Assembly: GCA_000092065.1 (NCBI GenBank)
Contig: CP000582.1
Length of the DNA stretch: 64,000 nucleotides
DNA from: Ostreococcus lucimarinus
Taxonomy: Eukaryota
Reading direction: 5' to 3' (one strand)
Both the position numbers and the translations under genes were made by a program. Positions 42,647 to 64,000 of this stretch are shown in pieces (positions within the stretch are counted from its first letter, which is position 1; each line of letters opens with the position of its first letter). The notes beneath the pieces were generated by a model that was not told the origin of the DNA, searched no databases, and was given only the letters and a program-made list of their open reading frames with translations.

Positions 42647-45600
42647 GTGACATATGACATCGTATTACAACGTTTTACCCCCACTTCGCAAGGACCGACC
42701 ACCCCATATCCATGTGCTATAAAAGCTAACTCAAAATGGAAGCTCGTACGTCTGAAACGCTTGGCGCTCGAGCGTTTCCGATGTCCGATGTTAACGCGCC
42801 ACAAACCGGAGAGCGTTCAGAATGGTACGCCCCGAAATGAATCACGAATGAGCAATCTAGACACACGCGCTATGTCGAACCCTTACTTTCAGGTCGGGCG
42901 ATGGGACTGCACGGACGAGCTCGAGGGGTGTCAATTCTCCGCGCCACATACGTCGGTGTCAGTTCCTAATTTCGAAGAGATTCAGACCCTTCACTACACC
43001 TGCGTGTATGAAGTGGCGATCACGTGTACACAGCGGCATGATATGCATAACGATGAGTTCGCGCATGTACTTAGTTCTGTCATCGAGCTCGCAAATCGCG
43101 TTGACCTGACACGACTTAGGCAACATCACTCCATAGATAACTTTGCCACACACGTTCTCACTTTTCGGTTCATTCTGGACCTGTTGAGGCAAACTTATCA
43201 GGAATACATCAAAGGAAGCATAGAAAATAATTCGTTTGAGCATGTCGAATTTACTTTCAACAATTGCATGGATGGTACGCACGGAATGGCAACATGCTTT
43301 AAACCGAATAAAAAGCATAGTCACCTTTGTTACATTTTGGATATTTCGCAGGCAGAAAGAAGTTGCAATGGTCGTACTGATGACACAAAATGCGTGCACG
43401 ACAAAATTACTATGAACGATCGCGTTCTTTCCGCGGCTAAGATCCCAGACAACGCAGTGAATAAACAATTCAGTGCTAGTATACTCAATGATGTGTATGG
43501 TTTCGATTCAAGTCTGTTCCATATTTCTCAGTCGGAAACCCTCTGCATGGACCCACAACAACGACTATTACTTCTTGCAGCAGCAGACTTATACCTGAGT
43601 AACACACGTGTTTGTCAACACGACGACTCCTTCTGCGTGCACGTCGGTGTATCGTGGAATGACTTTGAGGAAATTCGCAGAAAGTATAGTGCAGACTTTT
43701 TCTCCACTTATGATTCGACGGGAACATCAATAAGTGTCGCATCGGGTAGAATTGCGTATTATTTTGATTTCAAAGGGTGTGCTGTGACGATTGATACGGC
43801 TTGTTCATCATCTTTGGTTGCGTTGCATCAATCCATGTACGCAGCTGGCTCGCTCCGTGAATCAAGTGCACTTGTATGTGGCATCAACTTGATTTTGACA
43901 ACCACGATGACACATCGATTTCAGCTTGCTGGAATGATGTCTTCAGAGCATCGATGTATGACATTTGATGCACGCGCGGATGGCTACGTCCGGAGTGAGG
44001 CATGCAACATCGTACTCTTACACTTCAATGGCTTCACAAAAACTCATAGGAATGTACTGCGGCATGACGTTCATATGTCATGCGTCGTCAATCAAGATGG
44101 AACATCAACTGGACTTACGGCACCTAATGGAACAGCTCAGCGGAACCTGATGAATGAGTTACTATCGGACGTTTATAACCCTTCAAAACACGTTGGTGCT
44201 AAAATACATGCCCACGGCACAGGTACGCCTCTTGGGGATCCGATAGAGGTGTTTGCTATCAATTCTGCCCTCTCGTTTTCGTCACTGTGCAGGCTGTATG
44301 TGTCAGAAAAGTCGATGCGAGGGCACACAGAACCTGCTTCAGGTCTATGCAGCACCATACTTGCTTTCGTATCAGGTGCACAGTGCAAGCTACATGGTCA
44401 ACCACATTTACAGCAGTTAAACAATCATATACTAACATCGGTTGATGAAAGTATTTTTCAGCGTTCACTGCATTCCAGTTTTCCCTTAACTTCTATGGCG
44501 AGTGTCACCACAGTAAGCTCCTTCGCGTTCCAAGGGACGAACGCAATGGCTTCACTGACATATATCGACAAATGCAGTATTAGAGTGATTCGCAACACGT
44601 CAGGTCTGAGATCTTTGGTCAAGTTGGAGACTGAATCCCCTGTAAGACTCCCGTACACATTTTCTTGCCTTAGCATCGTCAATGGGAAAATGATACAGCT
44701 AACTTCAATGATTCACGACAAAACATTGAAGCGACTTTTGGATCATCGTGTAGCTGATATGCATCTTATGCCAGCCACAGGCCATCTTGAACTTGAAAGA
44801 GAGCTCACGAAGTGCGCTCTCGTAAGGAATGAACCATATCTTCTGACAAAGATCGCATTTATGCTGCCTCTCAAGCTTGATGAAAGCAATCAACTTATCA
44901 CAGAGATGAACACACATGGTCGCTTACGCGTTGGATGTGGCTCTGGCATATCCAATTACTGGTGTAGTACTGCACGACTTCAAATACCAGTAGGACGTGC
45001 CTGGTGCACGGACCGTACTTTTTATCTGACTAGTAAACTCGTTTCTCGGCGTTTCAAAGGTGCGACCGCAACAATAGCAGGGACGACGCCAATTCTCGAT
45101 TCACAAAATGTCGTGAATCCGTGTATCCAGGATGCGAGTCTACAATGCTCTGCATACGTCTTGAACACGTCAGCTTTCGCATCTGATACAACCTACATGG
45201 ACTGCGTATCGTTACTTAAGCTACCAACAACAATTCAAGACGTCATAGTTGTTAATCAGACAGGAAAAATACTTGTTAGATCGACGCATGTTGACATGTT
45301 GCAGAAGACGCAGCATGTGACTGAAAGTAATAACTCTGTCACAAGTAACTCTTCGAGTAACAATAAAACGCAGACATGGATACATCGTTTACTGTGTAAA
45401 GTATCAACCGTACGGATGAAAGCTGGCTTACGCACTCGCACATGCTTGGAACTCGCGAGATTGTTGTACCACGCGAGACAACAAAGAGTGCTGATATCAA
45501 ATATGCAAAACTTGCGTGAAGTAGGCAGTTTACATGCTCCAGAACTGATGCCCATCATGCGCGAAATGGGTCGTAAGTCAATGCAAGATATTAATTCGGC

Positions 45601-51600: not shown

Positions 51601-54600
51601 TAGCTCTGCGGGACCTTCGACCAGTAACTTTGAGGGAGTCCTCTTTGTTCGCATTCATAACTCCACCAAGCCCTTACCCGTGCATCCATATTTCATTGGC
51701 AACTTTTTGCGTTGTGACGAACTCGAGTTCGGCTTGTTTGGCGCACCGCACAGCGAATGGACTACTCTGGACGCGCGGCAGATTCTCTTGATTGAGAGTG
51801 TACACACTATCCAGCTGAACAACAGTTCAGACGTTTCATTGCGCACTCTAGAGACGACGGCTGTTCTTGTTGGAGCACAAGCGGTAGATTCAACTGACGA
51901 GCATAGCGTTGAGATACAGTACAACGCCTACTCTGGCGTTGCTTCCGCCTTGAGCGTGCTGTGCGGTCGCGTATCGTACACGTTTGGTATGCGTGGCCCG
52001 TCCGTGTGTGTCGACACCGCGTGCTCCTCCTCGCTCGTGGCCGCGCATGTTGCGAGCTCTCACTTGCGCGATGGATCGTGCGAGGACGCCCTCGTCGCCG
52101 GCGTGAGCGTGAACGTCGGCATCGGCACCTTCCTCGTGGCCACCGCCGCGAGCATGCTATCGTTCGATGGTCGGTGCAAAACCTTGGATGCCAGCGCCGA
52201 CGGTTACGCCAAGGGCGAGTGCTGCGTGGTCCTGCGCGTGTCGGTGGACGGGGCGAGCGCTGGAGCGCCCAAAGCGCCCGATCTTCCAAACGCCGAGTCT
52301 CCCTCTCTCGCTCTTCTCGAACAGACCGGTGTGAACCAGGATGGACGGTCGAGCTCGCTCACCGCACCAAACGGGCCGTCGCAGCAGGCACTCGTGGCCG
52401 ATGCGCTTCTCCGCTCGGGGCTGCACGGCGACGCGCTCGGCAGGCTGGAGATGCACGGCACGGGTACTTCGCTGGGAGATCCGATAGAGGTCGGCGCCGC
52501 GCTTGAGGTTCTCGCGCCGCCGACGCGCGCGGACCGGGCGCCGTCCAGGGGCCCCGCGCTCACGCTTGAGGGCGTGAAGCCACGCGCTGGCCACTGCGAA
52601 CCAGGGGCTGGCGCGGTTGGGTTGCTGTTTGCGATGGCAAACTTGACGGAGCGAGCCGTCGCGTCCCTCGTCCACCTGCGCCAGCTCAACCCTCACGTCG
52701 AGGCCGCGACGCGCCGAAACGCACCGTCGCCGCATGCGCGCGCGCCGGTGCTCGCGCGACAAGGCATGCCGCGACCGGATGACGGCGCGTCTGAGGCTGG
52801 AGCAGCGGACGCTGCTCGAGCGCGCGTGCGGCGATCCGGCGTGAGCGGCTTCGCGTTCCAGGGCACAAACGCGCACGCAATCATGGCCCGGGGACCCGGA
52901 CAGGCGACTGCGCCCGGGTACACGGGAAGCACGCACACGGCGGCGCGTGCGTGGGAGCGTCAGCGCCACTGGTGCGCGCCAGAACGGCACTGCCTCATCG
53001 AGTCCGTGCGCGCTCTTCATCCTCGCGAGGGAGACTCGAGCGCGTTGGCGCGGTCGTGCGTGCGCCTGTGTCGGTCCGCGTCGCTCGCTGGCATGCTTGA
53101 TCACGCCATCGGGCTCCGGACGCTACTACCAGGCACAGCGCACGTCGAGATATGTCGAGCCATGGCGGGCGCGCTGGCAGACCAGCCGCTCGCCGACATC
53201 TCGCTGTCGCACGTATCTTTTGCAGCGCCCCTCGAGCTTCGAGCGCCGACGACCGACGTGCTGTGCGACGTCACGCCGCAAGGCGTGGCCCGCGTGGGCG
53301 TGCGCGTGTCGTCGTCCTCTGCCGCCGCGCCGTTCCTCGCGGGCGCGCTCAGCCGCAGAAGCGCCTCAAGAATTACTGCGTCTCCGGCGCACCTCTCGCG
53401 AGGACCGGCGATGCCCGCGCTGGACGTGCAGCCTTGTGTTCACGGCGCCATCAGACGGAGCGTGCGACGACTCGACGCGGATGATCGAGAGCCAAAGCCT
53501 GCTCGACATGGCGGCTCGGCGTTGTTTTCATCGTTCGTGAGGTGCGTCATGGCAGAGCGAGCCTCTGAAGATCGCTTCGACACGCCATCGTTGGGCAGGC
53601 AGCCGAGCGCGACAGCGCGCGTGGTCTCCTTGACGAAAGCCAGAGATTTCACTACACAAGCTCTCGACAGCATGCCGAAATGCAACGAGATTGAGCTGAG
53701 CGTCGTCAGCGCTGTGTCGAGTAAGGCATCAGGCGCGCACGATGCTGTGCGTGTGAACAACATGCGACATGCGTGCGGCGAAGTGTGTGATCCACAAAGC
53801 TCAAAATCGCACGAGTTCGTCGCTCGGCATCTTGTGCAGTTTGGGTACTTCATCGAGCGCAGCTTGTTTGACGGGGAGCAGTTCTCCGTAACGGCGCACG
53901 AGGCGCGGTTGATGGACCCGCAGCAGCGCGTGCTCCTGGAGAACGCGCTCGCCGCGACGAGCGCGACGCCGCACAGCGCGCCGAAGCCAGCCACAGCCGT
54001 GTCCGTCGGCGCTTGGACGTCTCAGTACGCAGACATGTGCCGCGTGTACGAGCCAACGCCGGGGCCGTACTCTGGCGTTGCTTCCGCCTTGAGCGTGCTG
54101 TGCGGTCGCGTATCGTACACGTTTGGTATGCGTGGCCCGTCCGTGTGTGTCGACACCGCGTGCTCCTCCTCGCTCGTGGCCGCGCATGTTGCGAGCTCTC
54201 ACTTGCGCGATGGATCGTGCGAGGACGCCCTCGTCGCCGGCGTGAGCGTGAACGTCGGCATCGGCACCTTCCTCGTGGCCACCGCCGCGAGCATGCTATC
54301 GTTCGATGGTCGGTGCAAAACCTTGGATGCCAGCGCCGACGGTTACGCCAAGGGCGAGTGCTGCGTGGTCCTGCGCGTGTCGGTGGACGGGGCGAGCGCT
54401 GGAGCGCCCAAAGCGCCCGATCTTCCAAACGCCGAGTCTCCCTCTCTCGCTCTTCTCGAACAGACCGGTGTGAACCAGGATGGACGGTCGAGCTCGCTCA
54501 CCGCACCAAACGGGCCGTCGCAGCAGGCACTCGTGGCCGATGCGCTTCTCCGCTCGGGGCTGCACGGCGACGCGCTCGGCAGGCTGGAGATGCACGGCAC

Positions 54601-56623
54601 AGGTACTTCGCTGGGAGATCCGATAGAGGTCGGCGCCGCGCTTGAGGTTCTCGCGCCGCCGACGCGCGCGGACCGGGCGCCGTCCAGGCCCCCCGCGCTC
54701 ACGCTTGAGGGCGTGAAGCCACGCGCTGGCCACTGCGAACCAGGGGCTGGCGCGGTTGGGTTGCTGTTTGCGATGGCAAACTTGACGGAGCGAGCCGTCG
54801 CGTCCCTCGTCCACCTGCGCCAGCTCAACCCTCACGTCGAGGCCGCGACGCGCCGAAACGCACCGTCGCCGCATGCGCGCGCGCCGGTGCTCGCGCGACA
54901 AGGCATGCCGCGACCGGATGACGGCGCGTCTGAGGCTGGAGCAGCGGACGCTGCTCGAGCGCGCGTGCGGCGATCCGGCGTGAGCGGCTTCGCGTTCCAG
55001 GGCACAAACGCGCACGCAATCATGGCCCGGGGACCCGGACAGGCGACTGCGCCCGGGTACACGGGAAGCACGCACACGGCGGCGCGTGCGTGGGAGCGTC
55101 AGCGCCACTGGTGCGCGCCAGAACGGCACTGCCTCATCGAGTCCGTGCGCGCTCTTCATCCTCGCGAGGGAGACTCGAGCGCGTTGGCGCGGTCGTGCGT
55201 GCGCCTGTGTCGGTCCGCGTCGCTCGCTGGCATGCTTGATCACGCCATCGGGCTCCGGACGCTACTACCAGGCACAGCGCACGTCGAGATATGTCGAGCC
55301 ATGGCGGGCGCGCTGGCAGACCAGCCGCTCGCCGACATCTCGCTGTCGCACGTATCTTTTGCAGCGCCCCTCGAGCTTCGAGCGCCGACGACCGACGTGC
55401 TGTGCGACGTCACGCCGCAAGGCGTGGCCCGCGTGGGCGTGCGCGTGTCGTCGTCCTCTGCCGCCGCGCCGTTCCTCGCGGGCGCGCTCAGCCGCAGAAG
55501 CGCCTCAAGAATTACTGCGTCTCCGGCGCACCTCTCGCGAGGACCGGCGATGCCCGCGCTGGACGTGCAGCCTTGTGTTCACGGCGCGAGCTGGCTGCGC
55601 TCGTCGCAGCGACGAGGCCCGGGCGCGGAGCACCGCGTGTACGGCGACATACGCGCGCGTCAGATGTCCACGCTGTCGGCTGCGGCGTATCACTCGCCGC
55701 CCGCAGTGCTCGATGCCGCGCTGCACGCGCTCAGCGCGTGCGCGCCGCCGCCGGGTAGCGATGCGACAGAAGAGAGCCCGCACGTCCCGGCCACGATCGG
55801 CGGCGTCCGCACGCGAGGCGGGCACTCGGACATGTACCGCGCCCGGTTCGCGCTCGCGACGGCTCCGCCTGAGCGCGGGGAGCGGAACGCGTCCACGCGC
55901 AGATCTCGTCACCACCTGTGGGACTGGTCGAGTCTTTCGGCGGCGCATCGAGGGTGCGTGGTGCACGCGCTGGAGTCTCGACGACTCGGTGGCCTCACGA
56001 CGAATTCATTTTATCATAGCTTTACGTCTACGCAGGCATATAAGTTGGCTCATATTCCACGGCCAGACATCCTATCGCAGTCTTTCACTTCAATGAAGAC
56101 TATAAATGCTGTCGACAAAGCTAGCAGCACATTTACAGAACGCAGTAGTGATGCGATGGAAATTGTTAACGCCGTGCAACGCGAGATTTTGGAAATTTTA
56201 TCAACATTAACGACCAGTCCTGTAAGTTTAGATGATACACTTGCGAGCCACGGATTGGACTCACTGGGCATTGCATATTTTTTTATTCAAGTTGGCAAAC
56301 GGTTCAATGTTGAAGTGACTGTTGACAGTCTTGGCACGAACACCACAGTCAGTAGTATAGTGCATCAGATATCACAGATGCTTAGTGCAAGGGTGATTTT
56401 CCTACACACCAAGGACCTGGTGCGCGAGCGAAAAGCCGACAGCTCCTCAAGAAGAGGAAGGAGCACTGCGATCACATCGATGGTGTCTGCATACCGTCGA
56501 CACTTGCAGTCAACTGAATTCGAGCCCAAAGCCTGTTTTGCAAGAGGCGTACTTGCTTGCGCAATATTTACTATATTTATCATTGCGTACGGATATCACG
56601 CACACAGATTCGACATGTTTTAG
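42647..56623 (+). CDS. Giant modular type I polyketide synthase, apparently AT-less: (N-term unknown)-KS-DH-KR-ACP-KS-DH-KR-ACP-KS-DH(truncated)-KS-DH-ACP-TM helix; 4658 aa, single ORF
   Basis: 4x KS (DTACSSSL Cys, HGTGT, G-H). 4x DH-like (LLDHRVADMHLMP / MLDHA[VI]GLRTLLP, plus NPCIQDASLQ / AVLDAALHA). 2x KR (VFVTGGLGALGQ ... GQCNYSAANAALDA). 3x ACP (EEGLDSLAAVEL x2, SHGLDSLGIAYF). I could find no GHSxG/AFHS acyltransferase signature, and the KS-to-DH linkers are only ~28 aa. The first in-frame Met is 42647; a later Met start is possible. Confidence 0.9.
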   Translation: MTYDIVLQRFTPTSQGPTTPYPCAIKANSKWKLVRLKRLALERFRCPMLTRHKPESVQNGTPRNESRMSNLDTRAMSNPYFQVGRWDCTDELEGCQFSAPHTSVSVPNFEEIQTLHYTCVYEVAITCTQRHDMHNDEFAHVLSSVIELANRVDLTRLRQHHSIDNFATHVLTFRFILDLLRQTYQEYIKGSIENNSFEHVEFTFNNCMDGTHGMATCFKPNKKHSHLCYILDISQAERSCNGRTDDTKCVHDKITMNDRVLSAAKIPDNAVNKQFSASILNDVYGFDSSLFHISQSETLCMDPQQRLLLLAAADLYLSNTRVCQHDDSFCVHVGVSWNDFEEIRRKYSADFFSTYDSTGTSISVASGRIAYYFDFKGCAVTIDTACSSSLVALHQSMYAAGSLRESSALVCGINLILTTTMTHRFQLAGMMSSEHRCMTFDARADGYVRSEACNIVLLHFNGFTKTHRNVLRHDVHMSCVVNQDGTSTGLTAPNGTAQRNLMNELLSDVYNPSKHVGAKIHAHGTGTPLGDPIEVFAINSALSFSSLCRLYVSEKSMRGHTEPASGLCSTILAFVSGAQCKLHGQPHLQQLNNHILTSVDESIFQRSLHSSFPLTSMASVTTVSSFAFQGTNAMASLTYIDKCSIRVIRNTSGLRSLVKLETESPVRLPYTFSCLSIVNGKMIQLTSMIHDKTLKRLLDHRVADMHLMPATGHLELERELTKCALVRNEPYLLTKIAFMLPLKLDESNQLITEMNTHGRLRVGCGSGISNYWCSTARLQIPVGRAWCTDRTFYLTSKLVSRRFKGATATIAGTTPILDSQNVVNPCIQDASLQCSAYVLNTSAFASDTTYMDCVSLLKLPTTIQDVIVVNQTGKILVRSTHVDMLQKTQHVTESNNSVTSNSSSNNKTQTWIHRLLCKVSTVRMKAGLRTRTCLELARLLYHARQQRVLISNMQNLREVGSLHAPELMPIMREMGRKSMQDINSASASLCAVALLQACGARARVSGAHVRANDIVHEDASAAPAVCGSCVRATVQSSAQERSEPLVLSVASAPHTAPARALRSIAAGASIAGALCVERLLPAFGRRTPAASRDGAATTTASPAPKVSSVFVTGGLGALGQTSAAWYAHRGVRHAYLTGRRGRGESLLLRWSSRGGTDVSALHVLRVDACATDEASYGGARAHARVRAHGVLHAGGVLRDSLTARQSASAHRYVWSSKVVSAHALLRQCVGVERGARHIALFSSVAALLGSPGQCNYSAANAALDARAAHEWCRGYAVQSVQWGAWDGAGMALTNASVLRNARTTGIGVLDPQAGLGAVHVALQGASVTGRWRAIQGVLAVVPFQWSVLARAQRSRALIAEYRAESARSSAPVAVHPGAEEDAARDVSDESVRQIVASAVTRALGRDVSVDASLMEEGLDSLAAVELGGALQKETGVNMPATLAFDYPTITAISGYLKGAMLARSRARQSSGAASSAARTRAASGAVAHSRDSMPGIASNAREILGLAPVVMAIRRSVRRLDADDREPKPARHGGSALFSSFVRCVMAERASEDRFDTPSLGRQPSATARVVSLTKARDFTTQALDSMPKCNEIELSVVSAVSSKASGAHDAVRVNNMRHACGEVCDPQSSKSHEFVARRLVQFGYFIERSLFDGEQFSVTAHEARLMDPQQRVLLENALAATSATPHSAPKPATAVSVGAWTSQYADMCRVYEPTPGPYSGVASALSVLCGRVSYTFGMRGPSVCVDTACSSSLVAAHVASSHLRDGSCEDALVAGVSVNVGIGTFLVATAASMLSFDGRCKTLDASADGYAKGECCVVLRVSVDGASAGAPKAPDLPNAESPSLALLEQTGVNQDGRSSSLTAPNGPSQQALVADALLRSGLHGDALGRLEMHGTGTSLGDPIEVGAALEVLAPPTRADRAPSRGPALTLEGVKPRAGHCEPGAGAVGLLFAMANLTERAVASLVHLRQLNPHVEAATRRNAPSPHARAPVLARQGMPRPDDGASEAGAADAARARVRRSGVSGFAFQGTNAHAIMARGPGQATAPGYTGSTHTAARAWERQRHWCAPERHCLIESVRALHPREGDSSALARSCVRLCRSASLAGMLDHAVGLRTLLPGTAHVEICRAMAGALADQPLADISLSHVSFAAPLELRAPTTDVLCDVTPQGVARVGVRVSSSSAAAPFLAGALSRRSASRITASPAHLSRGPAMPALDVQPCVHGASWLRSSQRRGPGAEHRVYGDIRARQMSTLSAAAYHSPPAVLDAALHALSACAPPPGSDATEESPHVPATIGGVRTRGGHSDIYRARFALATAPPERGERNASTRRSRHHLWDWSSLSAAHRGCVVHALESRRLGGAAVVRSRAQQRSRAPPPRRAAAPRVLYGVGQQRACGAADGQGARRRSTLNSQCFVDDASHRRELMETHASPSIAQGSTRSSTRASLCAVALLQACGARARVSGAHVRANDIVHEDASAAPAVCGSCVRATVQSSAQERSEPLVLSVASAPHTAPARALRSIAAGASIAGALCVERLLPTFGRRTPAASRDGAATTTASPAPKVSSVFVTGGLGALGQTSAAWYAHRGVRHAYLTGRRGRGESLLLRWSSRGGTDVSALHVLRVDACATDEASYGGARAHARVRAHGVLHAGGVLRDSLTARQSASAHRYVWSSKVVSAHALLRQCVGVERGARHIALFSSVAALLGSPGQCNYSAANAALDARAAHEWCRGYAVQSVQWGAWDGAGMALTNASVLRNARTTGIGVLDPQAGLGAVHVALQGASVTGRWRAIQGVLAVVPFQWSVLARAQRSRALIAEYRAESARSSAPVAVHPGAEEDAARDVSDESVRQIVASAVTRALGRDVSVDASLMEEGLDSLAAVELGGALQKETGVNMPATLAFDYPTITAISGYLKGAMLARSRARQSSGAASSAARTRAASGAVAHSRRTTITQLPRLRLSYVPHEVSRRTTLGISGQYSHELRHFSSAGPSTSNFEGVLFVRIHNSTKPLPVHPYFIGNFLRCDELEFGLFGAPHSEWTTLDARQILLIESVHTIQLNNSSDVSLRTLETTAVLVGAQAVDSTDEHSVEIQYNAYSGVASALSVLCGRVSYTFGMRGPSVCVDTACSSSLVAAHVASSHLRDGSCEDALVAGVSVNVGIGTFLVATAASMLSFDGRCKTLDASADGYAKGECCVVLRVSVDGASAGAPKAPDLPNAESPSLALLEQTGVNQDGRSSSLTAPNGPSQQALVADALLRSGLHGDALGRLEMHGTGTSLGDPIEVGAALEVLAPPTRADRAPSRGPALTLEGVKPRAGHCEPGAGAVGLLFAMANLTERAVASLVHLRQLNPHVEAATRRNAPSPHARAPVLARQGMPRPDDGASEAGAADAARARVRRSGVSGFAFQGTNAHAIMARGPGQATAPGYTGSTHTAARAWERQRHWCAPERHCLIESVRALHPREGDSSALARSCVRLCRSASLAGMLDHAIGLRTLLPGTAHVEICRAMAGALADQPLADISLSHVSFAAPLELRAPTTDVLCDVTPQGVARVGVRVSSSSAAAPFLAGALSRRSASRITASPAHLSRGPAMPALDVQPCVHGAIRRSVRRLDADDREPKPARHGGSALFSSFVRCVMAERASEDRFDTPSLGRQPSATARVVSLTKARDFTTQALDSMPKCNEIELSVVSAVSSKASGAHDAVRVNNMRHACGEVCDPQSSKSHEFVARHLVQFGYFIERSLFDGEQFSVTAHEARLMDPQQRVLLENALAATSATPHSAPKPATAVSVGAWTSQYADMCRVYEPTPGPYSGVASALSVLCGRVSYTFGMRGPSVCVDTACSSSLVAAHVASSHLRDGSCEDALVAGVSVNVGIGTFLVATAASMLSFDGRCKTLDASADGYAKGECCVVLRVSVDGASAGAPKAPDLPNAESPSLALLEQTGVNQDGRSSSLTAPNGPSQQALVADALLRSGLHGDALGRLEMHGTGTSLGDPIEVGAALEVLAPPTRADRAPSRPPALTLEGVKPRAGHCEPGAGAVGLLFAMANLTERAVASLVHLRQLNPHVEAATRRNAPSPHARAPVLARQGMPRPDDGASEAGAADAARARVRRSGVSGFAFQGTNAHAIMARGPGQATAPGYTGSTHTAARAWERQRHWCAPERHCLIESVRALHPREGDSSALARSCVRLCRSASLAGMLDHAIGLRTLLPGTAHVEICRAMAGALADQPLADISLSHVSFAAPLELRAPTTDVLCDVTPQGVARVGVRVSSSSAAAPFLAGALSRRSASRITASPAHLSRGPAMPALDVQPCVHGASWLRSSQRRGPGAEHRVYGDIRARQMSTLSAAAYHSPPAVLDAALHALSACAPPPGSDATEESPHVPATIGGVRTRGGHSDMYRARFALATAPPERGERNASTRRSRHHLWDWSSLSAAHRGCVVHALESRRLGGLTTNSFYHSFTSTQAYKLAHIPRPDILSQSFTSMKTINAVDKASSTFTERSSDAMEIVNAVQREILEILSTLTTSPVSLDDTLASHGLDSLGIAYFFIQVGKRFNVEVTVDSLGTNTTVSSIVHQISQMLSARVIFLHTKDLVRERKADSSSRRGRSTAITSMVSAYRRHLQSTEFEPKACFARGVLACAIFTIFIIAYGYHAHRFDMF
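43480..44560 (+). other. PKS KS1 domain (AT-moderate composition)
   Basis: FDSSLFHISQSETLCMDPQQRLLL; TIDTACSSSLVALHQS (Cys codon near 43801); HAHGTGTPLGDPIE; SMRGHTEPASG; SSFAFQGTNAMASL. Confidence 0.85.
44600..45290 (+). other. PKS DH1 domain (AT-moderate composition)
   Basis: LLDHRVADMHLMPATGHLE (the HxxxGxxxxP variant with D) and NPCIQDASLQ (the DxxxQ motif). Confidence 0.65.
45960..46560 (+). other. PKS KR1 catalytic subdomain (GC-rich, repeat A copy 1)
   Basis: VFVTGGLGALGQTSAAWYAHRG; FSSVAALLGSPGQCNYSAANAALDA. Confidence 0.8.
46817..47013 (+). other. PKS ACP1
   Basis: VRQIVASAVTRALG..SLMEEGLDSLAAVELGGALQ..LAFDYPTITAISGYL. Confidence 0.85.
47560..48757 (+). other. PKS KS2 (GC-rich, repeat B copy 1)
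   Basis: FDGEQFSVTAHEARLMDPQQRVLLE; VCVDTACSSSLVAAHVA; EMHGTGTSLGDPIE; PRAGHCEPGAG; SGFAFQGTNAHAIM. Confidence 0.85.
48840..49726 (+). other. PKS DH2 (complete)
   Basis: MLDHAVGLRTLLPGTAHVE and YHSPPAVLDAALHALS. Confidence 0.65.
49976..51486 (+). repeat. PKS intragenic repeat A, copy 2
   Basis: See copy 1. Confidence 0.92.
50331..51384 (+). other. PKS KR2 + ACP2 (repeat A copy 2, offset +4371 from KR1/ACP1)
   Basis: Translation is identical to KR1/ACP1 except for LLPAFG->LLPTFG upstream. Confidence 0.85.
51684..52885 (+). other. PKS KS3, chimeric: divergent AT-moderate N-terminal part (to 51928) fused in-frame to GC-rich repeat B from 51929
   Basis: HPYFIGNFLRCDELEFGLFGAPHSEWTTLDARQILLIESV aligns with FGYFIERSLFDGEQFSVTAHEARLMDPQQRVLLENA of KS2/KS4. 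From Y|SGVASALS onward the sequence is identical to KS2/KS4. Confidence 0.8.
51929..53448 (+). repeat. PKS intragenic repeat B, partial copy 2 (1520 bp, from mid-KS to mid-DH)
   Basis: See copy 1. Both ends fall inside domains. Confidence 0.92.
52968..53448 (+). other. PKS DH3, truncated after the first half at the repeat junction (lacks the LDAALH half)
   Basis: MLDHAIGLRTLLP is present. At ..QPCVHGA|IRRSVRRLD the sequence jumps directly into the inter-module linker of repeat B copy 3. Confidence 0.7.
53447..55993 (+). repeat. PKS intragenic repeat B, copy 3
   Basis: See copy 1. It abuts partial copy 2 with a 2-bp microhomology (gc). Confidence 0.92.
53827..55993 (+). other. PKS KS4 + DH4 (repeat B copy 3, offset +6267 from KS2/DH2)
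   Basis: The motifs are the same as in KS2/DH2. Substitutions seen: ARRLVQ->ARHLVQ, SRGPAL->SRPPAL, DHAVG->DHAIG, HSDIY->HSDMY. Confidence 0.85.
56154..56385 (+). other. PKS terminal ACP3 (AT-moderate composition)
   Basis: AMEIVNAVQREILEIL..LDDTLASHGLDSLGIAYFFIQVGKRF..IVHQISQML. Confidence 0.8.
56531..56600 (+). other. C-terminal hydrophobic helix of the PKS (putative membrane anchor)
   Basis: ACFARGVLACAIFTIFIIAYGY is followed by HAHRFDMF and the stop. No thioesterase or reductase release domain is present. Confidence 0.5.
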
Positions 56624-56726
56624 TTACCAACGTCACGGCGGTAGGCTCATTGCCCTTGTAATTCAACTCCGTTCTCAAAAAGTTGTCTGTTAAGTACTTT
56701 GAGCACTGTTCAGCTCTCACCGCTGA

Positions 56727-56795
56727 CTCCCGACAGGAGTTAGCTAAAACTCCTGACAGGAGTTAGCTAAAACTCCTGACAGGAGTTAGCGAAAG
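56727..56795 (+). repeat. 3 x 23-bp tandem repeat, each unit = 13-bp palindrome CTCCTGaCAGGAG + 8-bp palindrome TTAGCTAA + AA
   Basis: Direct reading: ctcccgacaggagttagctaaaa / ctcctgacaggagttagctaaaa / ctcctgacaggagttagcgaaag. The array ends 3 nt before the ATG at 56799. Confidence 0.9.
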
Positions 56796-56798
56796 GTG

Positions 56799-57677
56799 AT
56801 GCCGAGGCGCACATCATTAGCCAACGGCAGCTCGCTGTACGACGGGTTGCGATTTAAGTCGAGCGGGTTCAAGCGTTCGGGCAGGAAAGTGAACTTTTAC
56901 ACGTGTAGTACGATCGACGACTCGGACAGAAACGCGTCCTCGACGGGGAGATGCACGTTCGAGGCGGAGATCCGGCACAGAGCCGCGACGGACGAGTACT
57001 TCATCACCAAGTACGTCGGCCATTCGTTCGGTTGCACCGCGCTCTCGCCCCACATCGACGGGGAAACGCGAGCCGAGCTCGTCGATGACGTGCAAATGCA
57101 AGCCATATCCCTGCAACGAGGTCGCGTCGCTGTACAATCGTGTATCGATTACGTGTTCCGGCGCTACTCGTACGTCGTCGACGAAGCGCCGGCTGCGTCG
57201 TTACTTCAGTGCGTGCGGCGACGAAGTTCGGTGGCCACTCGCAGAGAGGCTCTTAAGCGCTTCGCTCAGACGAAAGTGCGATCGAAATTACAGGGCGAAC
57301 TCATGACCTGCATCGCGCACTCGCGCCAAGTCATAACCTCGTTGAGCCTGACCGAACGCCCGACGTCACGCGACATTCGAAAGTATTATCATGTGTTCGG
57401 ATTGCTGCACACGCACTGCAGTCGTCTTCCGGAGTTCGACTCGCTCGCAACCGTATGGATGGCCGCAGATACGACTAGCAGCGCCGCGCTCATTCATGCG
57501 CTCGAGCTCGGCATCAAAAAATTCGACAACGCACTGCGCACCGTTCGCCCCGCGACTGCCTCACAAACTGAAGCCTTGCACAACGCTCACGGCCATCTTC
57601 CTCCTTACGATCTCAGTGAAGCCGAGGCGTTGACGGCTCTTCGTAGTATAGCGCGTTCTGCCCAAACACGTTCGTAG
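56799..57677 (+). CDS. GC-rich intronless orphan protein with N-terminal WRKY/FLYWCH/FAR1-like zinc-finger signature (possibly transposon-derived)
   Basis: YDGLRFKSSGFKRSGRKVNFYTCS...GRCTFEAEIRH...YFITKYVGHSFGC fits the beta-strand C..C...H.(H/C) pattern of WRKY-GCM1 superfamily DNA-binding domains. The rest of the protein has no recognisable family. An imperfect hairpin lies at 57690-57714, just after the stop. Confidence 0.4.
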   Translation: MPRRTSLANGSSLYDGLRFKSSGFKRSGRKVNFYTCSTIDDSDRNASSTGRCTFEAEIRHRAATDEYFITKYVGHSFGCTALSPHIDGETRAELVDDVQMQAISLQRGRVAVQSCIDYVFRRYSYVVDEAPAASLLQCVRRRSSVATRREALKRFAQTKVRSKLQGELMTCIAHSRQVITSLSLTERPTSRDIRKYYHVFGLLHTHCSRLPEFDSLATVWMAADTTSSAALIHALELGIKKFDNALRTVRPATASQTEALHNAHGHLPPYDLSEAEALTALRSIARSAQTRS

Positions 57678-58074
57678 CGAAGCTTCTTTGTTAAAGATGT
57701 CAAACATCGTTAACTATGTCATCTTTCCATAGTTTAAACCTCGTTTGCCTTTTTCACCATCAAGCGAAGCGAACCTATTGGATTTCACAACCCTCGTTGA
57801 CGTGTCACTTGAGGTCCAGCTCAGCTCGCCGTCATCGTCAGGACGCGGAAGAATCACACTGCGTTGCGCGCTGACCGGACTTCAAGAGCAAGAACAAAAT
57901 TGGTCGCTAATCCACAGCCAGTGCAACGATAGCAGTACAGTTCCTCTCTTCCGACAGCTCTGGTGTGTTTCCCAGCTCATGCCTGGCTCAGAGCCGCCGC
58001 CCACCATGGACCGGACGGACATAGCCACGTCTAGAAAACTCAGCCCGGAAGGCACGAGTCAAGGCGACCGTGAA

Positions 58075-61000
58075 ATGATGAGCTGGAGCCTTGCTTACGC
58101 GAGCAGGATACTACATACTCGAAAAAAATCGAAAGGGAAGCGCAAGTTCACATTTCAAGTGCGTGCTTTTATTACTTCATATTTTTTTCCTTAAATGTGC
58201 CGACAGCCAGTTGCCGACCAGCTTACAGCGATCAATATCGCCCCGTATCCTGACAGTGCGTTTGATCTCAATGTGCGACAACAGGCATTCGGTACTTGTC
58301 TACAACACGCCTTGCTTCACTGGCAGGAATTATGTTGCTCAAACGACTTCAACAGTTTCGCAGCAAAGGCTTCTATCAGGTGCCTCAGTCTACCTCAGCT
58401 CATTTTACACAAAAAGGAAGTAATGGGAGCTCTTTTGAATGGCATTAGATCAGGAAAATGCTATTCTCTTGAAGCGCTCTTTCATTGTCTCGTTGCCATA
58501 GCGAAAGATCTTGGTGCTAGCTTTGTCACATATTTTCCACTTTCAGTTGAGGCAATCACTTGCTGTCTGGAAGGAACTATGGAATTGGACGCGAACCACG
58601 TGGAGTCGGCGTTTCGGTGCCTCGCTACGCTCTGCACATTACTATGGCGGTCAGGCAAAGTTACAATGCTGCATATTTTAGAGTGTACGCGGCATATTAG
58701 AAACCATCCAAAGCAACATGTGCGCAAACTAGCAGCCCAAGCGGTTGCTCCGGCTGTACGAAGTTCGACTAATGAAATCATCTTAGCTAGTGTCAGAAAT
58801 CTCATCATGGAACACTCTATACTGTGTGAGTCAAGTCAGCAGGAACACAGGATAGAAGCAACGACATTCATGTTACACTACATTGCTGTTGGTCATGCGA
58901 GCGCGCTTCACTCAAAGTCGGACAGCGTGCTGAGAGCAGTTTTCGATCCAGACTTCGTACCTGAGGTACGGGGAACTGTCCGTCTAGTCATAGTTCAGAA
59001 CTTACTTGTTTCACTTGATGCATCTCTACCCAAGAGCGCCTTCAAAGAACTATGGAATTCATTTTTACATGTTATCAGTTCTTGTGCTGCTCAAGTGGGT
59101 AACAAGAACATATCAGAAGTCATGTACTTATCTGAGATAGCTATATCCATATGTTCTACAAGGTTCGAATTGTGTACAGATAGCTACAATAAGCTTTCTG
59201 ATTTCGTACACGCTTACTTCTTGTTTTGTACAACCAGTGCAAAACCAGTTGAGCAATCAAGTGTCACTACTTTTGTGCGGCTGCTGGCGGCACTTTCTTC
59301 ACGTAACGAGTTCAAAGCAATGCCAGTGTTAACATCTTTTCCTTGGTGTGATCTGATACGGACTATTGACAACTCTTCGATTACGCTGATACTAAGGGTG
59401 CTGATACAAAACATTGAACTGGGATGCGTCACAGCTCATTACATGAGTGAAGCCTTACTGATAGATTCGTCGCACTTGATTTTTCTTAGAGGATTCGAAA
59501 ACTCTTTAATGTTGGGCAAGATTATTCAAAAGGTGGCAGAATTTTCGAAGGATTTACACTCGAAGTTGATGCGAATCGACGATGCACTCTTGAAGTGGCA
59601 CTTCGAGTGTAAGCTGACATCGCTTGATTTTAGTGAAATATGGTCAACTCTCCAAATTTTACCGTATTTTGCCGACACTCGACTGGTGCAGAGCGTCATT
59701 ACTACCATGGTCTCATATGTCAAGCGTTCAAAAGAGGCAAGTGTGGATCAAAATGCCCTTTCCAGTGGTGCATCGGCTCTTCTCATGTCTTCACTTGAAG
59801 CTGATATACTTTGTCGAGAACTTGATACATCTTCAAATTGCAAGTTCTCGTTTGAACTTATTCGTTTCACTCTCTCATGTCGTATTTCTTCGCCGGCTGT
59901 GTGGTCTTCGTTAGCACGTCTAACTTCTTTGATTATACGGCGAGCCGATGAAATACCAGCCGAACTTATGCCAAGTGATCTGACAGAATGCATACGATCC
60001 CAAAATCGTCTTTTAAGGGTTTCTGTTCTTGAGTATTTAGCGATTATTGCAAACAATCATATGGGCATGTCACCCAAGTCGACTGAGTGTGTTACAGCCT
60101 TTTTGTATATGAACAGGTTGTCTCGTGATAGTGGAAGTATACTCGAATATTCCAGGAAGAGTATCAATTTGATCAGATCCTTGACTCGGAAACTCAGCGA
60201 CTTTGATGCCTCTGATCACGTTGCGGTGTTGAATATGGCTCTGGGAGCGTTGTATCTTCGTTTCAATCCACTATGGGATCCACTTGTAGAACTGATTGGT
60301 GTCTTGAGTGGATCCGATTCTACAGCGCTTCAGTTATTACAGGCAGAAATCCTTCGAACCAAGCAGGAAGTAATTGCTGACCACGATGTCCAAGAAACGA
60401 TTATTTTGTTCCCCACCGACAGCGATCAGACACGTGATGAAGTTTGTGAAGCTCTCAATCCTCAAGAGCGGAGTGTAGAACAGTCTCAACGTTTACAGCT
60501 GTTGATTACGTCTCTGCAGTACTGCACACTTATGGACCAAACTTTTGTACTTGATCTCTTTTTGGATGTTTATTCAGTCTGCCGTAGAAATGAATATAGA
60601 TATGTTGCTACACGGTATTCAGGCATAATTTTAGCTCTCTTAAAGCTTATGCAGAGTAAAGATGAGGTTCGTTCTCTCCTTCTTCGGACAAAATTAGATG
60701 CGCATCAGTTATACGAAGGCGTTTTCACAGCTTTGAAAGCTTTAGTGGGTGATGACAACGCGAACTTGGCATCAGAAGCGCTGAAGTGTATGGGCCTTTT
60801 GAAGTTAGATTATCTCCCTAATATTAGAGTTTCGCAACTATGCTTGCTGACGGATGTTCAGTCAGTGAAGCGCGCGTTAACTTCAATACAATTCGAAGAA
60901 GGTTCAGAGGATTCTGAAGTTTCACATGAGTTTCCTAAGATCCAAGAACGGCACCGGGAGGATGTCATCAGTATCATAGTAAGCATCCTGTCAAAATATA

Positions 61001-64000
61001 TTCTCTCAGGGAAAACTTCATTTAGCTCACTAAAGTCGATCATTTTGAGATGGTTCAGCTGTTTGAGATGTGCTGAAATGGAACCATTTATACATGGGCT
61101 GTTTGTACCCTTGATGAGACCTCATGAAATCAGACTACGTCATGGTACTACTGTATTCTCTACTCAAGCGATAAACTCAGCGATATCAGAAGCTTCACAT
61201 GGTACCTTGATCGCATTGATGTCACAGCTGCGAGAAGTGCATAAAGCGGTACCAATGCATTTGAGAAACTCCACGGATCTTATTCTTTCGGTGATGTTCC
61301 AAATTTTCATGAGAGCATGCAAGCGTCAAGATATCCAAAATGATGAGTTGCTTCGACTTAAAATCTTGCGGTCAAATTCGCTTCGGATGATTGCGCGCAT
61401 TATACCGATTGTGAAGTTCGAAGGTATAGAGCGCCATTGGCTCGATGCGAGTGAATGTTTGATAAATACTGTTAAGGGCTTGGAAAACGAATGCTCCGGC
61501 TCACAAGAACCCGCAGTGCTGTGCCTGCTTTCTTCAATCACACAACGTGTAGATCTCATCAAACTCCTCGAAACTCCCACCGGTCACAAACTTCTCGAAT
61601 ATGTTTTCGCTGTATTGAGCAGCCCAAAGACATCTGAACCATGTAGAAGAACAATTTTGAGCATGATCACCATGCTCCTCAACTCCGTAAATTCTGAGTT
61701 GGGTAATGATTGCACTGTCGCAAATCTGTCCGAAAAAATCGCTGCAGGCGTTCGTATGTCACTTATAAACGAGCTAAAACGCGGAAGAATACCGACATCA
61801 AAGCAATTTGGCGAAGATATGCTCTCTGAAATTCAGATTCTTGAACAATTAAGCAAATTTGAACGCTGCAGTCCGTGGAATATTTGTATGTTCAAAGATG
61901 TGTTAGAGATGGCGTGTACGAAACGTCTGAACAGTGGAAAACGTACTGAGTTGCTCGTTATGTTAAACTCTATACTTTCAGCACTATCTTTGGATGAGCA
62001 ACTCAGACGTGAGTCAGTTGAGAGGTTAGCATTTTTATATGCGACATTGAGAGCACCGTGCTCTAGGAGAGCATTGTTAGATCTCTTCAAAGCACTCGAT
62101 TATTCGCAAGACGGATATAGAGTTCGCATACTTCATGATTTGAATGCTTACTTGGATGGGCGCATTGGCGAAGTGGATCACGGTAGAAGAATTCGGGCAT
62201 ACGCCAAGTTGCAATCACGCTGGGGTGGAGAAGATGAAACATCAATGCAACTGTGGATTTATAACTCGCTGCATGATATATGTTCAAATGACAGCATTCT
62301 TCGTAATTCTGCAAAACTATTGATATATCGGTGTTTGGAAGTTGGTTCAACAGCGTCCTACAACTTCCAGCATGGGCCAAGTTCACGGCTAGTGGTGAAC
62401 ACTGTGTTGCCCTGGGTCGCAGAGCTACTCGGTAGACGGGACCCTCTTATTCGCAATTGTGGTATAGAACTATTAAGATATGCGGTGGTCCGAGGGCATA
62501 TTCTTGATTTTTGCTGTTTGTGTGATCAGAATGAAGAAGTCGATGTATTTCTGAACCTGTGCCACATCCAATCTCACAGGAGAGCCCGGGCAATACGACA
62601 ACTGCATGCGCCTGAAGTTTTAAGCTCTGTGGAGCCCAGACTATATTGGACGTATGTGATTCCTCTTTTCATGGTGTTTTTGGGCGATCCAAGTGCAGAT
62701 GTCGCAGCTACGGCCGTAGATGCTTTGGGTCACACGGTAAAAATACTCGAGTCTGCGGAATATGTCAAGGTTATTTGCCGCCTGTTGCACCTTGCGCACA
62801 GGGCCTCAGAATTACAGAAATTTCATCTGCGCGGTGCGACTTGCATGCTAGAAAATTTGAGAACACACTATGAACCTTACGGCGATTTTGATGATCGGTT
62901 AGTTCGCCGTGGTGAAGCGGCAGATTTGGGGGCTTTATATTCCACTGCACTTCCACTGGCACAGGCATGTATTACTTTGAGACGTGACGCTCAAAGTAGC
63001 GAACAAGGCTCAAGTCAATATCTACAGACAAGTGCAATTTCATGTGTTTCGAGTATGTTGGCACTTTTTGATCATGAAAAATCCGAAGCAGGGACACTTT
63101 GTATGCTCAAGTTCATCATCGAAAACATGAGCAGTCGGTCAGAGAAGTTGCGCGATAATGCAATGACAGCTCTCAAGTTCATTTCAATCAAATTGGGCGA
63201 AAGGCACTTGCCGTTGATCATTCGTGTTCTGCGAAATGGACGGACAACAGGCTTCCATCTCCATGTTCTCGGCAAAGCGATTCATGTGTTAGTGAGTAAC
63301 TGTGTGAACATGTCTCCAGAAATCGCCACAGTCGTTTTTGTGGAAATTGTTCCTACCCTGCAAGCAAATCTCTTCGGAAGCGCGCGAGATCGTATGGATT
63401 CAAAATCTACCAAACCCGTTGTTGAGGCTAAACCAAGTTATTCCTTGAAAACCATAAGCTTAATTGCCGCACTTTTGAAGGACGGAGATTCTTTGATCAA
63501 GTTTGTTCGTACATTTGTTAGGATGCTACCAGAGTCACCAGACAGCAGAAGTCAAAAGAATTTCGAGCTAATTTTACACGCTTTACATGAAGGATTGTTG
63601 CGAAATGCAAGTCTAGGGGTTCAAAATCTTACTTATCTTGCTGGTTCGCTCGTTGAAGAATACATCACTTCCTCCACCGTGGATACCGATTGTGATACGG
63701 ACACAAGTTTGCTTGCGTCAGAGTATTGTGTGAAAATTCATCAATTCGCAATCAGTTTACTATATGATGCACTCAAGTGTGCGGAAAAATTGCGTGATGA
63801 AAGACTTCCATGTGAAAGCGACCTCGAGGCTTTGAAAACGACGATCGCTTTGATGATGCGATGCTTGCTGAGCACGTCATATGAAGTACAGGTCGGGGCA
63901 ACGCGCATCTTAGCAAAACTTTTACGCTCCGGCTTGCTCGCGAAAGAAATTTCCGCAGAAAACTTAACTAAACGGATTATTCGTACACTTAAGTCGTGCA
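58075..64000 (+). CDS. UTP20: SSU processome component UTP20 (DRIM, HEAT/ARM repeats), 5' part; ORF runs off the window end
   Basis: This gene is absent from the supplied ORF track because it has no stop in the window. Exon 1 (58075-58158) reads ..KKSKGKRKFTFQ. A 48-nt GT..AG intron (58159-58206) carries an in-frame stop. Exon 2 starts at 58207 and reads PVADQLTAINI..LLHWQELCCSNDFNSFAAKASIRCLSLPQLILHKKEVMGALL.. It stays open in one frame to 64000, which I checked by hand translation. It contains the UTP20-typical FLNLCHIQSHRRARAIRQL block. Confidence 0.8.

What the first reader, a model, noticed from the sequence alone, without database searches (positions are those of the whole stretch)
56727..56795. 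Three 23-bp double-palindrome repeats abut the start codon of the GC-rich orphan ORF
Seen: each unit contains a 13-bp palindrome CTCCTG-a-CAGGAG and an 8-bp perfect palindrome TTAGCTAA. Units 1 and 3 each carry one substitution. The array begins ~100 bp after the PKS stop and ends 3 nt before the ATG at 56799. Paired palindromes in phased tandem copies are typical of dimeric DNA-binding protein sites (operator-like or autoregulatory sites) or of subterminal repeats of DNA transposons. The adjacent ORF itself appears to encode a zinc-finger DNA-binding domain, so self-recognition is a testable idea. Transcribed, the units would also form three short hairpins in a 5' leader.
Basis: partly seen in the sequence, partly recalled or inferred. 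Interest (0 to 1): 0.5.

Follow-up and report, generated by a model that had tools for sequence, protein, structure and literature searches.

The report
Palindromic minisatellite beside a Helitron remnant
The three 23-bp repeats are real, but they look like a young, copy-number-variable, hairpin-prone minisatellite lying next to a truncated transposon (Helitron) gene copy in the alga Ostreococcus lucimarinus, not like a conserved regulatory site for that gene.

Summary
In detail: three head-to-tail 23-bp units occupy 56727-56795, found nowhere else in the window. They start 103 nt after the PKS stop and end 3 nt before the annotated ATG.

The window is Ostreococcus lucimarinus CCE9901, apparently the low-GC part of chromosome 2. 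The "orphan ORF" is OSTLU_119562.

That ORF is the 3' remnant of a Helitron transposon:
- Distant homologues lie 35 nt downstream of a RepHel gene in ~9.3-kb elements.
- The shared segment (56833-57778) ends in the same terminus (GCGAAGC mini-hairpin, CTAG, host T) in four different contexts.
- The window copy is 5'-truncated. It lacks a ~45-residue N-terminal stretch conserved in the full-length copy, in a partial 84%-identical copy and in the 36%-identical homologue.
- Its ATG and first 11 codons are flank sequence.

The array lies outside the shared segment. It is absent upstream of every other family member and from full Helitrons. In an 18-mer scan of metagenomes it occurs in tandem only at this locus. 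Wild alleles carry 2, 3 or 4 units.

Best reading (confidence about 0.6) is a locus-specific palindromic minisatellite that grew by slippage from a pre-existing quasi-palindrome. If transcribed it folds into one hairpin of about -50 kcal/mol just before the AUG. Autoregulation is not supported. Interest is low.

The parts
56727..56795 (.). Three tandem 23-bp units (the finding). Each holds a 13-17-nt palindrome (CTCCTG-A-CAGGAG, extendable to AACTCCTG-A-CAGGAGTT) and the 8-nt palindrome TTAGCTAA. Wild alleles have 2, 3 or 4 units.
56718..56798 (+). Extended quasi-palindrome. The flanks CACCGCTGA and GGTG pair around the array. The predicted single RNA hairpin is about -50 kcal/mol with 3 units, -37 with 2 and -63 with 4. 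A hypothetical 1-unit version folds at -24.
56624..56832 (+). Locus-specific spacer between the PKS stop and the 5' breakpoint of the Helitron-derived segment. It contains the array, the annotated ATG (56799) and the first 11 codons. It has no similarity to any other copy of the gene or to the full Helitrons.
56799..57677 (+). Annotated ORF OSTLU_119562 / XP_001416178.1 (292 aa). It is a 5'-truncated copy of a Helitron-associated accessory ORF with a conserved C..C..H..C pattern and a helical C-terminal domain.
56833..57778 (+). Helitron-derived segment. It is 98.8% identical to a copy in a different genomic context (locus B: L013-L016).
57764..57779 (+). Helitron 3' terminus: mini-hairpin GCGAAGC (57764-57770), terminal CTAT (57775-57778; CTAG in the other three copies) and host T (57779).
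   Evidence: canonical features from PMC5148889 and PMC2267711
42647..56623 (+). Upstream neighbour: a 4658-codon ORF encoding a multi-module polyketide synthase (KS, KR, DH and ACP domains; no AT domain was hit). It has a 68.5% GC core and low-GC ends.
58195..64000 (+). Downstream neighbour: the UTP20 gene. It runs off the window end.

Best explanation
The array is a young, locus-specific palindromic minisatellite (VNTR) with no demonstrated function.

**Origin (inferred).** A hairpin-prone quasi-palindrome of about 40 nt lay in the short spacer downstream of the PKS gene. Replication slippage or template switching on the hairpin duplicated it in 23-bp steps.

**Setting (shown).** The array sits 38 nt upstream of the 5' breakpoint of a 5'-truncated Helitron 3' remnant. 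The annotated start codon it abuts is an accidental in-frame ATG in flank sequence, so the abutment is a by-product of that junction.

**Consequence (inferred).** Any transcript that starts upstream of the array, or reads through from the PKS, would carry a hairpin of about -50 kcal/mol ending about 8 nt before the AUG. That should hinder scanning ribosomes, so the truncated ORF is probably poorly translated from that AUG.

**Shown versus inferred.** The repeat, its variability, its locus specificity within the data searched, the Helitron origin and the truncation of the ORF are shown. The slippage origin, the lack of function and the translational effect are inferred.
For: **1. Copy number varies in natural populations.**
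- 2 units: L040 and L042, from two samples.
- 3 units: the window and 13 other contigs.
- 4 units: L007, plus two similar places not shown.
- The end units are the degenerate ones and the central unit is the perfect one. In the 4-unit allele unit 1 is duplicated. Both fit slippage.

**2. The array is locus-specific.**
- It occurs only once in the window.
- In a metagenome-wide scan for an 18-mer, tandem copies occur only in contigs of this locus. The 7 single hits lie in unrelated sequence, at about the chance rate.
- There are no hits in viral contigs.

**3. It is not part of the gene family.**
- Homology to the other copies begins at 56833.
- The full-length copy (P0005), L003 and the 36%-identical P0094 share a conserved N-terminal stretch of about 45 residues that the window copy lacks.
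- None of them has the array or any tandem repeat upstream.

**4. The ORF is a Helitron remnant.**
- Homologues lie 35 nt downstream of a 2566-2587-aa RepHel in 9 contigs.
- GCGAAGCGAA(C/A)CTAG followed by T is conserved, and homology ends there in four contexts.
- The family has only 6 representatives among 1.84 billion proteins.

**5. There is no sign of constraint since duplication.** There are 6 nonsynonymous and 2 synonymous differences between the two 98.8%-identical copies.

**6. The fold.** The minimum free energy is -49.1 kcal/mol, z = -6.8. The flanks take part in the stem, and a 1-unit version already folds at -24 kcal/mol.

**7.** No Rfam family matches.
Against: - A 17-nt and an independent 8-nt palindrome in one 23-nt unit are unlikely by chance and could reflect a selected protein-binding or structural role.
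- The array is present in every contig of this locus. These contigs are 99-99.9% identical overall, so this says little about constraint.
- No transcript data were available. The position of the array relative to the PKS poly(A) site and the ORF's transcription start is unknown.
- No "empty site" (a PKS-UTP20 junction without the insertion) could be retrieved. It is therefore unknown whether the array pre-dates the Helitron remnant, arose at the junction, or came in with it.
- The alleles come from short-read metagenome assemblies. The 2- and 4-unit alleles each recur in independent samples, and the array (46-92 bp) is shorter than typical reads.
Confidence: 0.6

Rival explanations
1. The array is a cis-regulatory set of dyad-symmetric binding sites (an operator or promoter element). 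A dimeric DNA-binding protein, possibly the CCHC protein encoded next door, would bind it and control OSTLU_119562.
For: - There are two palindromes per unit, in phased repeats directly upstream of the ATG.
- The family keeps four Cys/His positions at 36% identity.
- A low-confidence model shows a helix followed by four strands around those positions.
- Each unit contains TGACAG. From memory, this is the core site of TALE homeodomain proteins. That is a lead only.
Against: - The array is absent upstream of every other member of the family, including the full-length 98.8%-identical copy and the Helitron-borne homologues.
- The window copy has lost the conserved N-terminal stretch, including the predicted helix of the putative domain.
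- Unit number varies from 2 to 4, and only the central unit has both palindromes intact.
- A transposon accessory protein would be expected to recognise transposon DNA, and the array has no similarity to it.
Confidence: 0.1
2. The array is a functional RNA or DNA structure. The long hairpin would act as a translational block in the 5' leader of OSTLU_119562, or as a 3'-end, stability or insulator element for the giant PKS transcript 103 nt upstream on the same strand.
For: - The predicted hairpin is -49 kcal/mol with z = -6.8, and it ends about 8 nt before the AUG.
- The two genes are on the same strand, only 176 nt apart.
- Each unit has stop codons in all three forward frames (read directly).
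Against: - Stability changes from -37 to -63 kcal/mol among natural alleles, which argues against a tuned structure.
- No known RNA family matches. The only hit, mir-1258, has E = 0.96 and 21 bits against a 74-bit threshold.
- There is no conservation beyond this near-identical population.
- Eukaryotic Pol II 3'-end formation does not normally use such hairpins (general knowledge).
- There are no transcript data.
Confidence: 0.13
3. The array is a terminal or subterminal repeat of a mobile element. It would be either the 5' part of a composite non-autonomous Helitron that includes the ORF, or the end of another transposon.
For: - It lies 38 nt from a Helitron-derived segment.
- Each unit resembles a Helitron 3' end: a hairpin followed by ...CTAA (features from PMC5148889).
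- The RepHel-bearing relatives carry two direct repeats of about 55 bp with palindromes upstream of RepHel.
- The window holds other transposon genes, for example a PIF/Harbinger DDE ORF at 36446-38239.
Against: - No other copy of the family (locus B, L031, L030, L003, or the full Helitrons L029 and L032-L039) has the motif or any similarity to the 56624-56832 flank.
- The exact 18-mer scan found no dispersed copies in metagenomic Ostreococcus-like contigs.
- There is no inverted partner array or target-site duplication around the segment.
- The unit does not resemble this family's own terminus.
Confidence: 0.08

Closest known systems
Minisatellites / VNTRs made of hairpin-forming (palindromic) units
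   Same: - The units are head-to-tail and 23 bp long.
- Copy number is polymorphic within a species (2-4).
- The edge units are degenerate.
- The array is confined to one locus.
- It has strong self-complementarity, which favours slippage.
   Different: - It is very short, with at most 4 units seen.
- The unit holds two separate palindromes.
- It sits exactly at a transposon-remnant junction and next to an annotated start codon.
Canonical (Helitron1-type) Helitrons and their accessory ORFs (this applies to the adjacent ORF, not to the array)
   Same: - The relatives of the ORF lie directly downstream of RepHel.
- The 3' end has a short hairpin a few nucleotides before a CTAG terminus, followed by host T.
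- There are no target-site duplications or terminal inverted repeats.
- Copies occur in several contexts. Plant Helitrons are also known to carry an extra gene (an RPA-like gene; PMC4683698 abstract).
   Different: - The window copy has no RepHel and no 5' end, and its terminus reads CTAT.
- The accessory ORF is a tiny CCHC plus helical-bundle family with no Pfam match, not RPA-like.
Operator or iteron-like arrays of dyad-symmetric protein-binding sites
   Same: The sites are phased, repeated and dyad-symmetric, and lie immediately upstream of a start codon.
   Different: - There is no conservation at homologous genes.
- Copy number is variable.
- Only one unit is fully symmetric.
- No cognate DNA-binding protein has been established.
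- The setting is eukaryotic.
Stable 5'-leader hairpins that block scanning ribosomes (general knowledge of eukaryotic translation)
   Same: The predicted stem is about -50 kcal/mol and close to the AUG.
   Different: Whether the array is transcribed as a leader at all is unknown. Stability also differs widely between alleles.

Membership tests
Minisatellite / VNTR | Head-to-tail repeats with a unit of about 10-100 bp | tested here: met
   Period 23, 3.0 copies, 95% matches, score 124.
Minisatellite / VNTR | Copy-number polymorphism among individuals of the species | tested here: met
   Alleles of 2 units (L040, L042), 3 units (window and 13 other contigs) and 4 units (L007 plus 2 similar places). 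All come from short-read assemblies.
Minisatellite / VNTR | Confined to one locus rather than dispersed | tested here: met
   Unique in the window. In the metagenome scan, tandem copies occur only in contigs of this locus. The complete genome was not available to search, and only an exact 18-mer was scanned.
Operator / autoregulatory binding-site array | Dyad-symmetric sites in phased repeats next to the regulated gene | tested here: met
   A 17-nt and an 8-nt palindrome per unit, with the array ending 3 nt before the ATG.
Operator / autoregulatory binding-site array | Sites conserved upstream of homologous genes | tested here: not met
   Absent from locus B, L003, L030, L031, L029 and L032-L039. 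Homology between copies starts only at 56833.
Operator / autoregulatory binding-site array | The adjacent gene encodes a DNA-binding protein that recognises the site | tested here: inconclusive
   C..C..H..C is conserved at 36% identity. There is no Pfam, PDB or fold match. Model confidence in that region is low. Binding cannot be tested here.
Helitron (the segment 56833-57778 that carries the ORF) | RepHel transposase in the element or in autonomous relatives | tested here: met
   There is no RepHel in the window. Homologues of the ORF (P0094 and P0099, 36-38% identity) lie 35 nt downstream of a 2566-2587-aa protein with Helitron_like_N and PIF1 domains in 9 contigs.
Helitron (the segment 56833-57778 that carries the ORF) | 3' terminus CTRR preceded by a short hairpin (PMC5148889, PMC2267711) | tested here: met
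   GCGAAGC, then GAA(C/A)CTAG, in locus B, L031 and the full Helitron L032. The window reads CTAT, one substitution. Homology ends exactly there in all four.
Helitron (the segment 56833-57778 that carries the ORF) | Insertion next to host T, without target-site duplication or terminal inverted repeats | tested here: met
   The first flank base is T in all four contexts (TGG, TGA, TTC, TAC). No duplication or inverted repeat is seen at the segment boundaries.
Helitron (the segment 56833-57778 that carries the ORF) | 5' terminus TC after host A | tested here: not met
   The copy is 5'-truncated inside the accessory ORF. No ATC occurs in 56624-56726. The segment is therefore a remnant, not an intact element.
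Transposon terminal / subterminal repeats (the array itself) | The same repeats at the ends of other copies of the element | tested here: not met
   No match to the unit or to the 56624-56832 flank in any related locus. No dispersed copies were found.
WRKY-GCM1 / FAR1-like zinc finger (a resemblance recalled from memory, for the ORF) | A significant profile or fold match to the family | tested here: not met

The most novel reading that the evidence does not exclude
The array is a haplotype-specific cis element of the candidate mating-type region. Its three TGACAG-containing dyads would be bound by a sexual-cycle regulator such as a TALE homeodomain dimer, or by the Helitron-derived CCHC protein. 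In that case a domesticated Helitron gene fragment next to the giant PKS would be switched on or off, and unit number (2-4) would tune the response.
Probability: 0.05. Interest if true: 0.55.

Novelty: new member of a known kind. Interest (0 to 1): 0.2.

Why it matters
The array matters little for its own sake. It is an ordinary short VNTR, and its striking position comes from a transposon-remnant junction.

It has some practical value:
- It is a ready-made length marker (2, 3 or 4 units) for O. lucimarinus populations carrying this chromosome-2 haplotype.
- It re-labels an "orphan" gene of the reference genome (OSTLU_119562) as a truncated Helitron accessory ORF.

The context is of more interest. 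A small, previously unnamed CCHC protein family rides with Helitrons in these picoalgae. Near-identical remnants of it sit in two highly divergent versions of the low-GC outlier region. This points to recent Helitron activity or exchange in a region thought not to recombine.

Tried and rejected
1. **Pfam on the ORF and its relatives.** Run at permissive E-values, it gave nothing.

2. **Structure prediction.** The window ORF gave pLDDT 51. The full-length relative gave 65.

4. **Empty-site search (PKS-UTP20 without the insertion).** A homology search with the first 400 residues of UTP20 returned no hit at all, not even itself. The translation was checked and is correct. The exact look-up of the PKS tail ORF was not on record.

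5. **Other copies within the window.** Searches for the flank, the segment or the unit found only chance 9-14-mers.

6. **Rfam.** Only a sub-threshold miRNA-like hit, rejected.

7. **Bacterial-type promoter/terminator scan.** It is irrelevant for a eukaryote and gave nothing useful.

8. **Literature.** There is no paper on OSTLU_119562 and nothing specific on Helitrons in Ostreococcus.

9. **Second palindrome as an automatic consequence of tandem repetition.** Rejected, because the two dyad centres are 10.5 nt apart, not 11.5.

10. **Retroposed copy (5' truncation with a common 3' end).** Rejected in favour of Helitron, because of the RepHel linkage and the CTAG|T terminus, and because there is no A-rich tail.

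Full report
**1. The observation**

Three head-to-tail 23-bp units occupy 56727-56795:
- CTCCCGACAGGAGTTAGCTAAAA
- CTCCTGACAGGAGTTAGCTAAAA
- CTCCTGACAGGAGTTAGCGAAAG

Tandem Repeats Finder scores the array 124, the highest in the window. The 21-mer core, allowing up to 3 mismatches, occurs only here in 64 kb and never in 100 shuffles.

The PKS ORF (42647-56623; KS, KR, DH and ACP domains) stops 103 nt upstream. The ATG of the next ORF is at 56799, 3 nt after the array.

The large palindrome has 8-nt arms (AACTCCTG-A-CAGGAGTT) and is perfect in units 2 and 3. TTAGCTAA is perfect in units 1 and 2. So only the central unit has both palindromes intact.

**2. Where the window comes from**

The 292-aa ORF is exactly XP_001416178.1 / OSTLU_119562 of Ostreococcus lucimarinus CCE9901, on an 895,087-bp record. 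The window is about 45% GC outside the PKS core.

The literature provides the setting:
- The low-GC part of chromosome 2 (the "big outlier chromosome") is the candidate mating-type region.
- CCE9901 is the candidate MT- strain.
- MT+ cells co-occur with MT- cells and usually outnumber them in metagenomes (PMC8557840; PMC7016971).

That this window lies inside that region is my inference from its base composition and from the chromosome-2-sized record.

**3. What the neighbouring ORF is**

The family is tiny. It has three clusters among 5.8 billion proteins and six representatives among 1.84 billion. It has no Pfam match.

*The distant homologues ride with Helitrons.*
- P0094 and P0099 (36-38% identity) lie 35 nt downstream of a 2566-2587-aa protein with Helitron_like_N and PIF1 domains, in nine contigs. 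Five of these contigs are about 9.3-9.4 kb.
- The one copy seen in genomic context (L032) ends ...CGCGAAGCGAAACTAG, followed by T.

*The same terminus closes the segment in other contexts.*
- The window segment ends ...AAGCGAAGCGAACCTAT, followed by T.
- Locus B (L013) and a third, 58%-GC context (L031) end ...GCGAAGCGAACCTAG, followed by T.
- All four flanks diverge immediately after that point.

A short hairpin a few nucleotides before a 3' CTRR terminus, with no target-site duplication, is the canonical Helitron end (PMC5148889; PMC2267711). The segment 56833-57778 is therefore the 3' remnant of a Helitron that carries the element's accessory ORF.

**4. The window copy is truncated, and the array is outside it**

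- Homology to the 98.8%-identical copy in locus B starts at 56833, as does homology to the 84%-identical L003.
- The full-length protein (P0005, 326 aa), L003 and the 36%-identical P0094 share a conserved N-terminal stretch of about 45 residues (...PRDNRRYRG...DGPYDS...AV.ALR..AL). The window protein lacks it.
- In the full-length model, that stretch includes the helix preceding the four strands that carry the conserved Cys/His positions.
- The ATG at 56799 and the first 11 codons are therefore flank sequence that happens to be in frame.
- The array lies 38 nt upstream of the breakpoint, inside a 209-bp spacer (56624-56832). That spacer resembles nothing in locus B, L003, L030, L031 or the full Helitrons.
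- None of those loci has a tandem repeat upstream of the ORF.
- Since the duplication, the two near-identical copies differ at 6 nonsynonymous and 2 synonymous sites, so no purifying selection is visible.

**5. Distribution and variability of the array**

- An exact scan of the metagenome collection for CTCCYGACAGGAGTTAGC returned nine stretches. Two have three tandem copies, and both are this locus at 99.7-99.96% identity. The other seven are single hits in unrelated sequence, about the number expected by chance.
- Viral contigs gave none.
- Across 19 further contigs of this locus, 13 have three units and L007 (plus two similar places) has four, with unit 1 duplicated. L040 and L042, from different samples, have two, with the central unit missing.
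- L010 and L011 start inside the array, so their unit number cannot be read. The hybrid contig L041 also carries three units.
- Together with the degenerate end units, this is the behaviour of a minisatellite that changes by slippage.

**6. Structure**

- As RNA, the 3-unit allele folds into one long hairpin of -49.1 kcal/mol, with z = -6.8 against shuffles. It does not form three small hairpins.
- The flanks CACCGCTGA and GGTG extend the stem.
- A hypothetical 1-unit version already folds at -24 kcal/mol. The 2-, 3- and 4-unit alleles fold at about -37, -50 and -63 kcal/mol.
- This suggests, by inference, that a pre-existing quasi-palindrome was amplified.
- It also means any transcript crossing the array carries a very stable stem ending about 8 nt before the AUG.
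- Each unit has stop codons in all three forward frames.
- No Rfam family matches.

**7. Interpretation**

The best-supported reading, with confidence about 0.6, is a young, locus-specific palindromic VNTR at the junction between the PKS 3' flank and a truncated Helitron remnant. Its contact with the start codon is incidental.

The rivals are:
- A real protein-binding array, about 0.10.
- A functional RNA or DNA hairpin, about 0.13.
- A transposon terminal repeat, about 0.08.

The ORF here is also a damaged copy of a transposon gene. The zinc-finger reading of the protein is plausible from the conserved C..C..H..C pattern, but no profile or fold search confirmed it.

**8. What could not be settled**

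- Whether the array pre-dates the insertion. No empty site could be retrieved.
- Where transcripts start and end.
- Whether the complete genome holds degenerate copies of the unit.
- Whether locus B belongs to the MT+ haplotype of the same species.
  - Its ELO gene is 63% identical in protein to the CCE9901 chromosome-2 ELO, and its GR gene is 66% identical in DNA to the window's GR gene.
  - Those values fit a divergent haplotype.
  - The species assignment remains an inference.

Noticed in passing
window 56833-57778; L013 4137-5082; L001 10345-11052; L031 1655-1843: The Helitron remnant is 98.8% identical between the window and a locus (L013-L016, L001) whose neighbours are far more divergent. 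ELO there is 63% identical in protein to the CCE9901 chromosome-2 ELO, and GR is 66% identical in DNA to window 32928-33914. The locus is probably the opposite mating-type haplotype. This would imply recent Helitron activity or exchange between haplotypes thought not to recombine.
   Followed up: partly
L041 (21.7-kb Tara Oceans contig) and L002: These are hybrid contigs. On the left they carry PKS, the array and the window-type ORF. On the right they carry the flank of the other locus (PTPA), which is 99.86% identical to L001. The switch falls in the last ~100 nt of the shared segment. They could be real recombinants or chimeric assemblies across the 946-bp repeat. This is unresolved.
   Followed up: partly
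window 42647-56623: The PKS ORF has a 68.5% GC core (about 45.6-56.0 kb) between low-GC ends (44%). It has near-identical internal repeats 4371 bp apart. Metagenomic contigs (L004, L023, L025) align with different numbers of these repeats. That suggests module copy-number variation or assembly collapse. No acyltransferase domain was hit by Pfam.
   Followed up: no
window 36446-38239 (+) and 35960-36016: A 597-aa ORF with a DDE_Tnp_4 (PIF/Harbinger-type) transposase domain lies in a GC-richer island (50-57% GC, 36-40 kb). Just upstream is a perfect 26-bp x 2.2 tandem repeat (CTGGAATCGCTGGAGTCACGTGTCTC) containing CACGTG. It is the second-highest-scoring array in the window.
   Followed up: no
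L032 about 180-330 (also L033-L036): The RepHel-bearing Helitrons have two direct repeats of about 55 bp (GCGCACGTGGGAGAGA.TTTTAAAATAGT...GTAGTCACTCCA) with palindromes just upstream of the RepHel start. They are unrelated in sequence to the 23-bp unit.
   Followed up: no
L013 2438-4377 versus L001 9700-10345: L001 is the L013 arrangement with a deletion of about 1.9 kb. The deletion removes a 189-aa ORF and the first ~240 nt of the accessory ORF, and fuses the rest to an unrelated upstream reading frame (P0002, P0018). From memory, the 189-aa ORF ends in a retrotransposon gag/pre-integrase-like motif. This is further structural variation around the same remnant.
   Followed up: partly
L029 4966-5001; L032 8088-8123: Only 35 nt separate the RepHel stop from the accessory ORF start, and the spacer contains GTGAGT. 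The two reading frames might be joined by splicing into one protein.
   Followed up: no
window 58195-59394: The word-indexed protein search returned no hit for the N-terminal 400 residues of UTP20, not even itself. Yet the 2432-aa product is on record next to this locus in many contigs. Very long proteins may be missing from that index.
   Followed up: no
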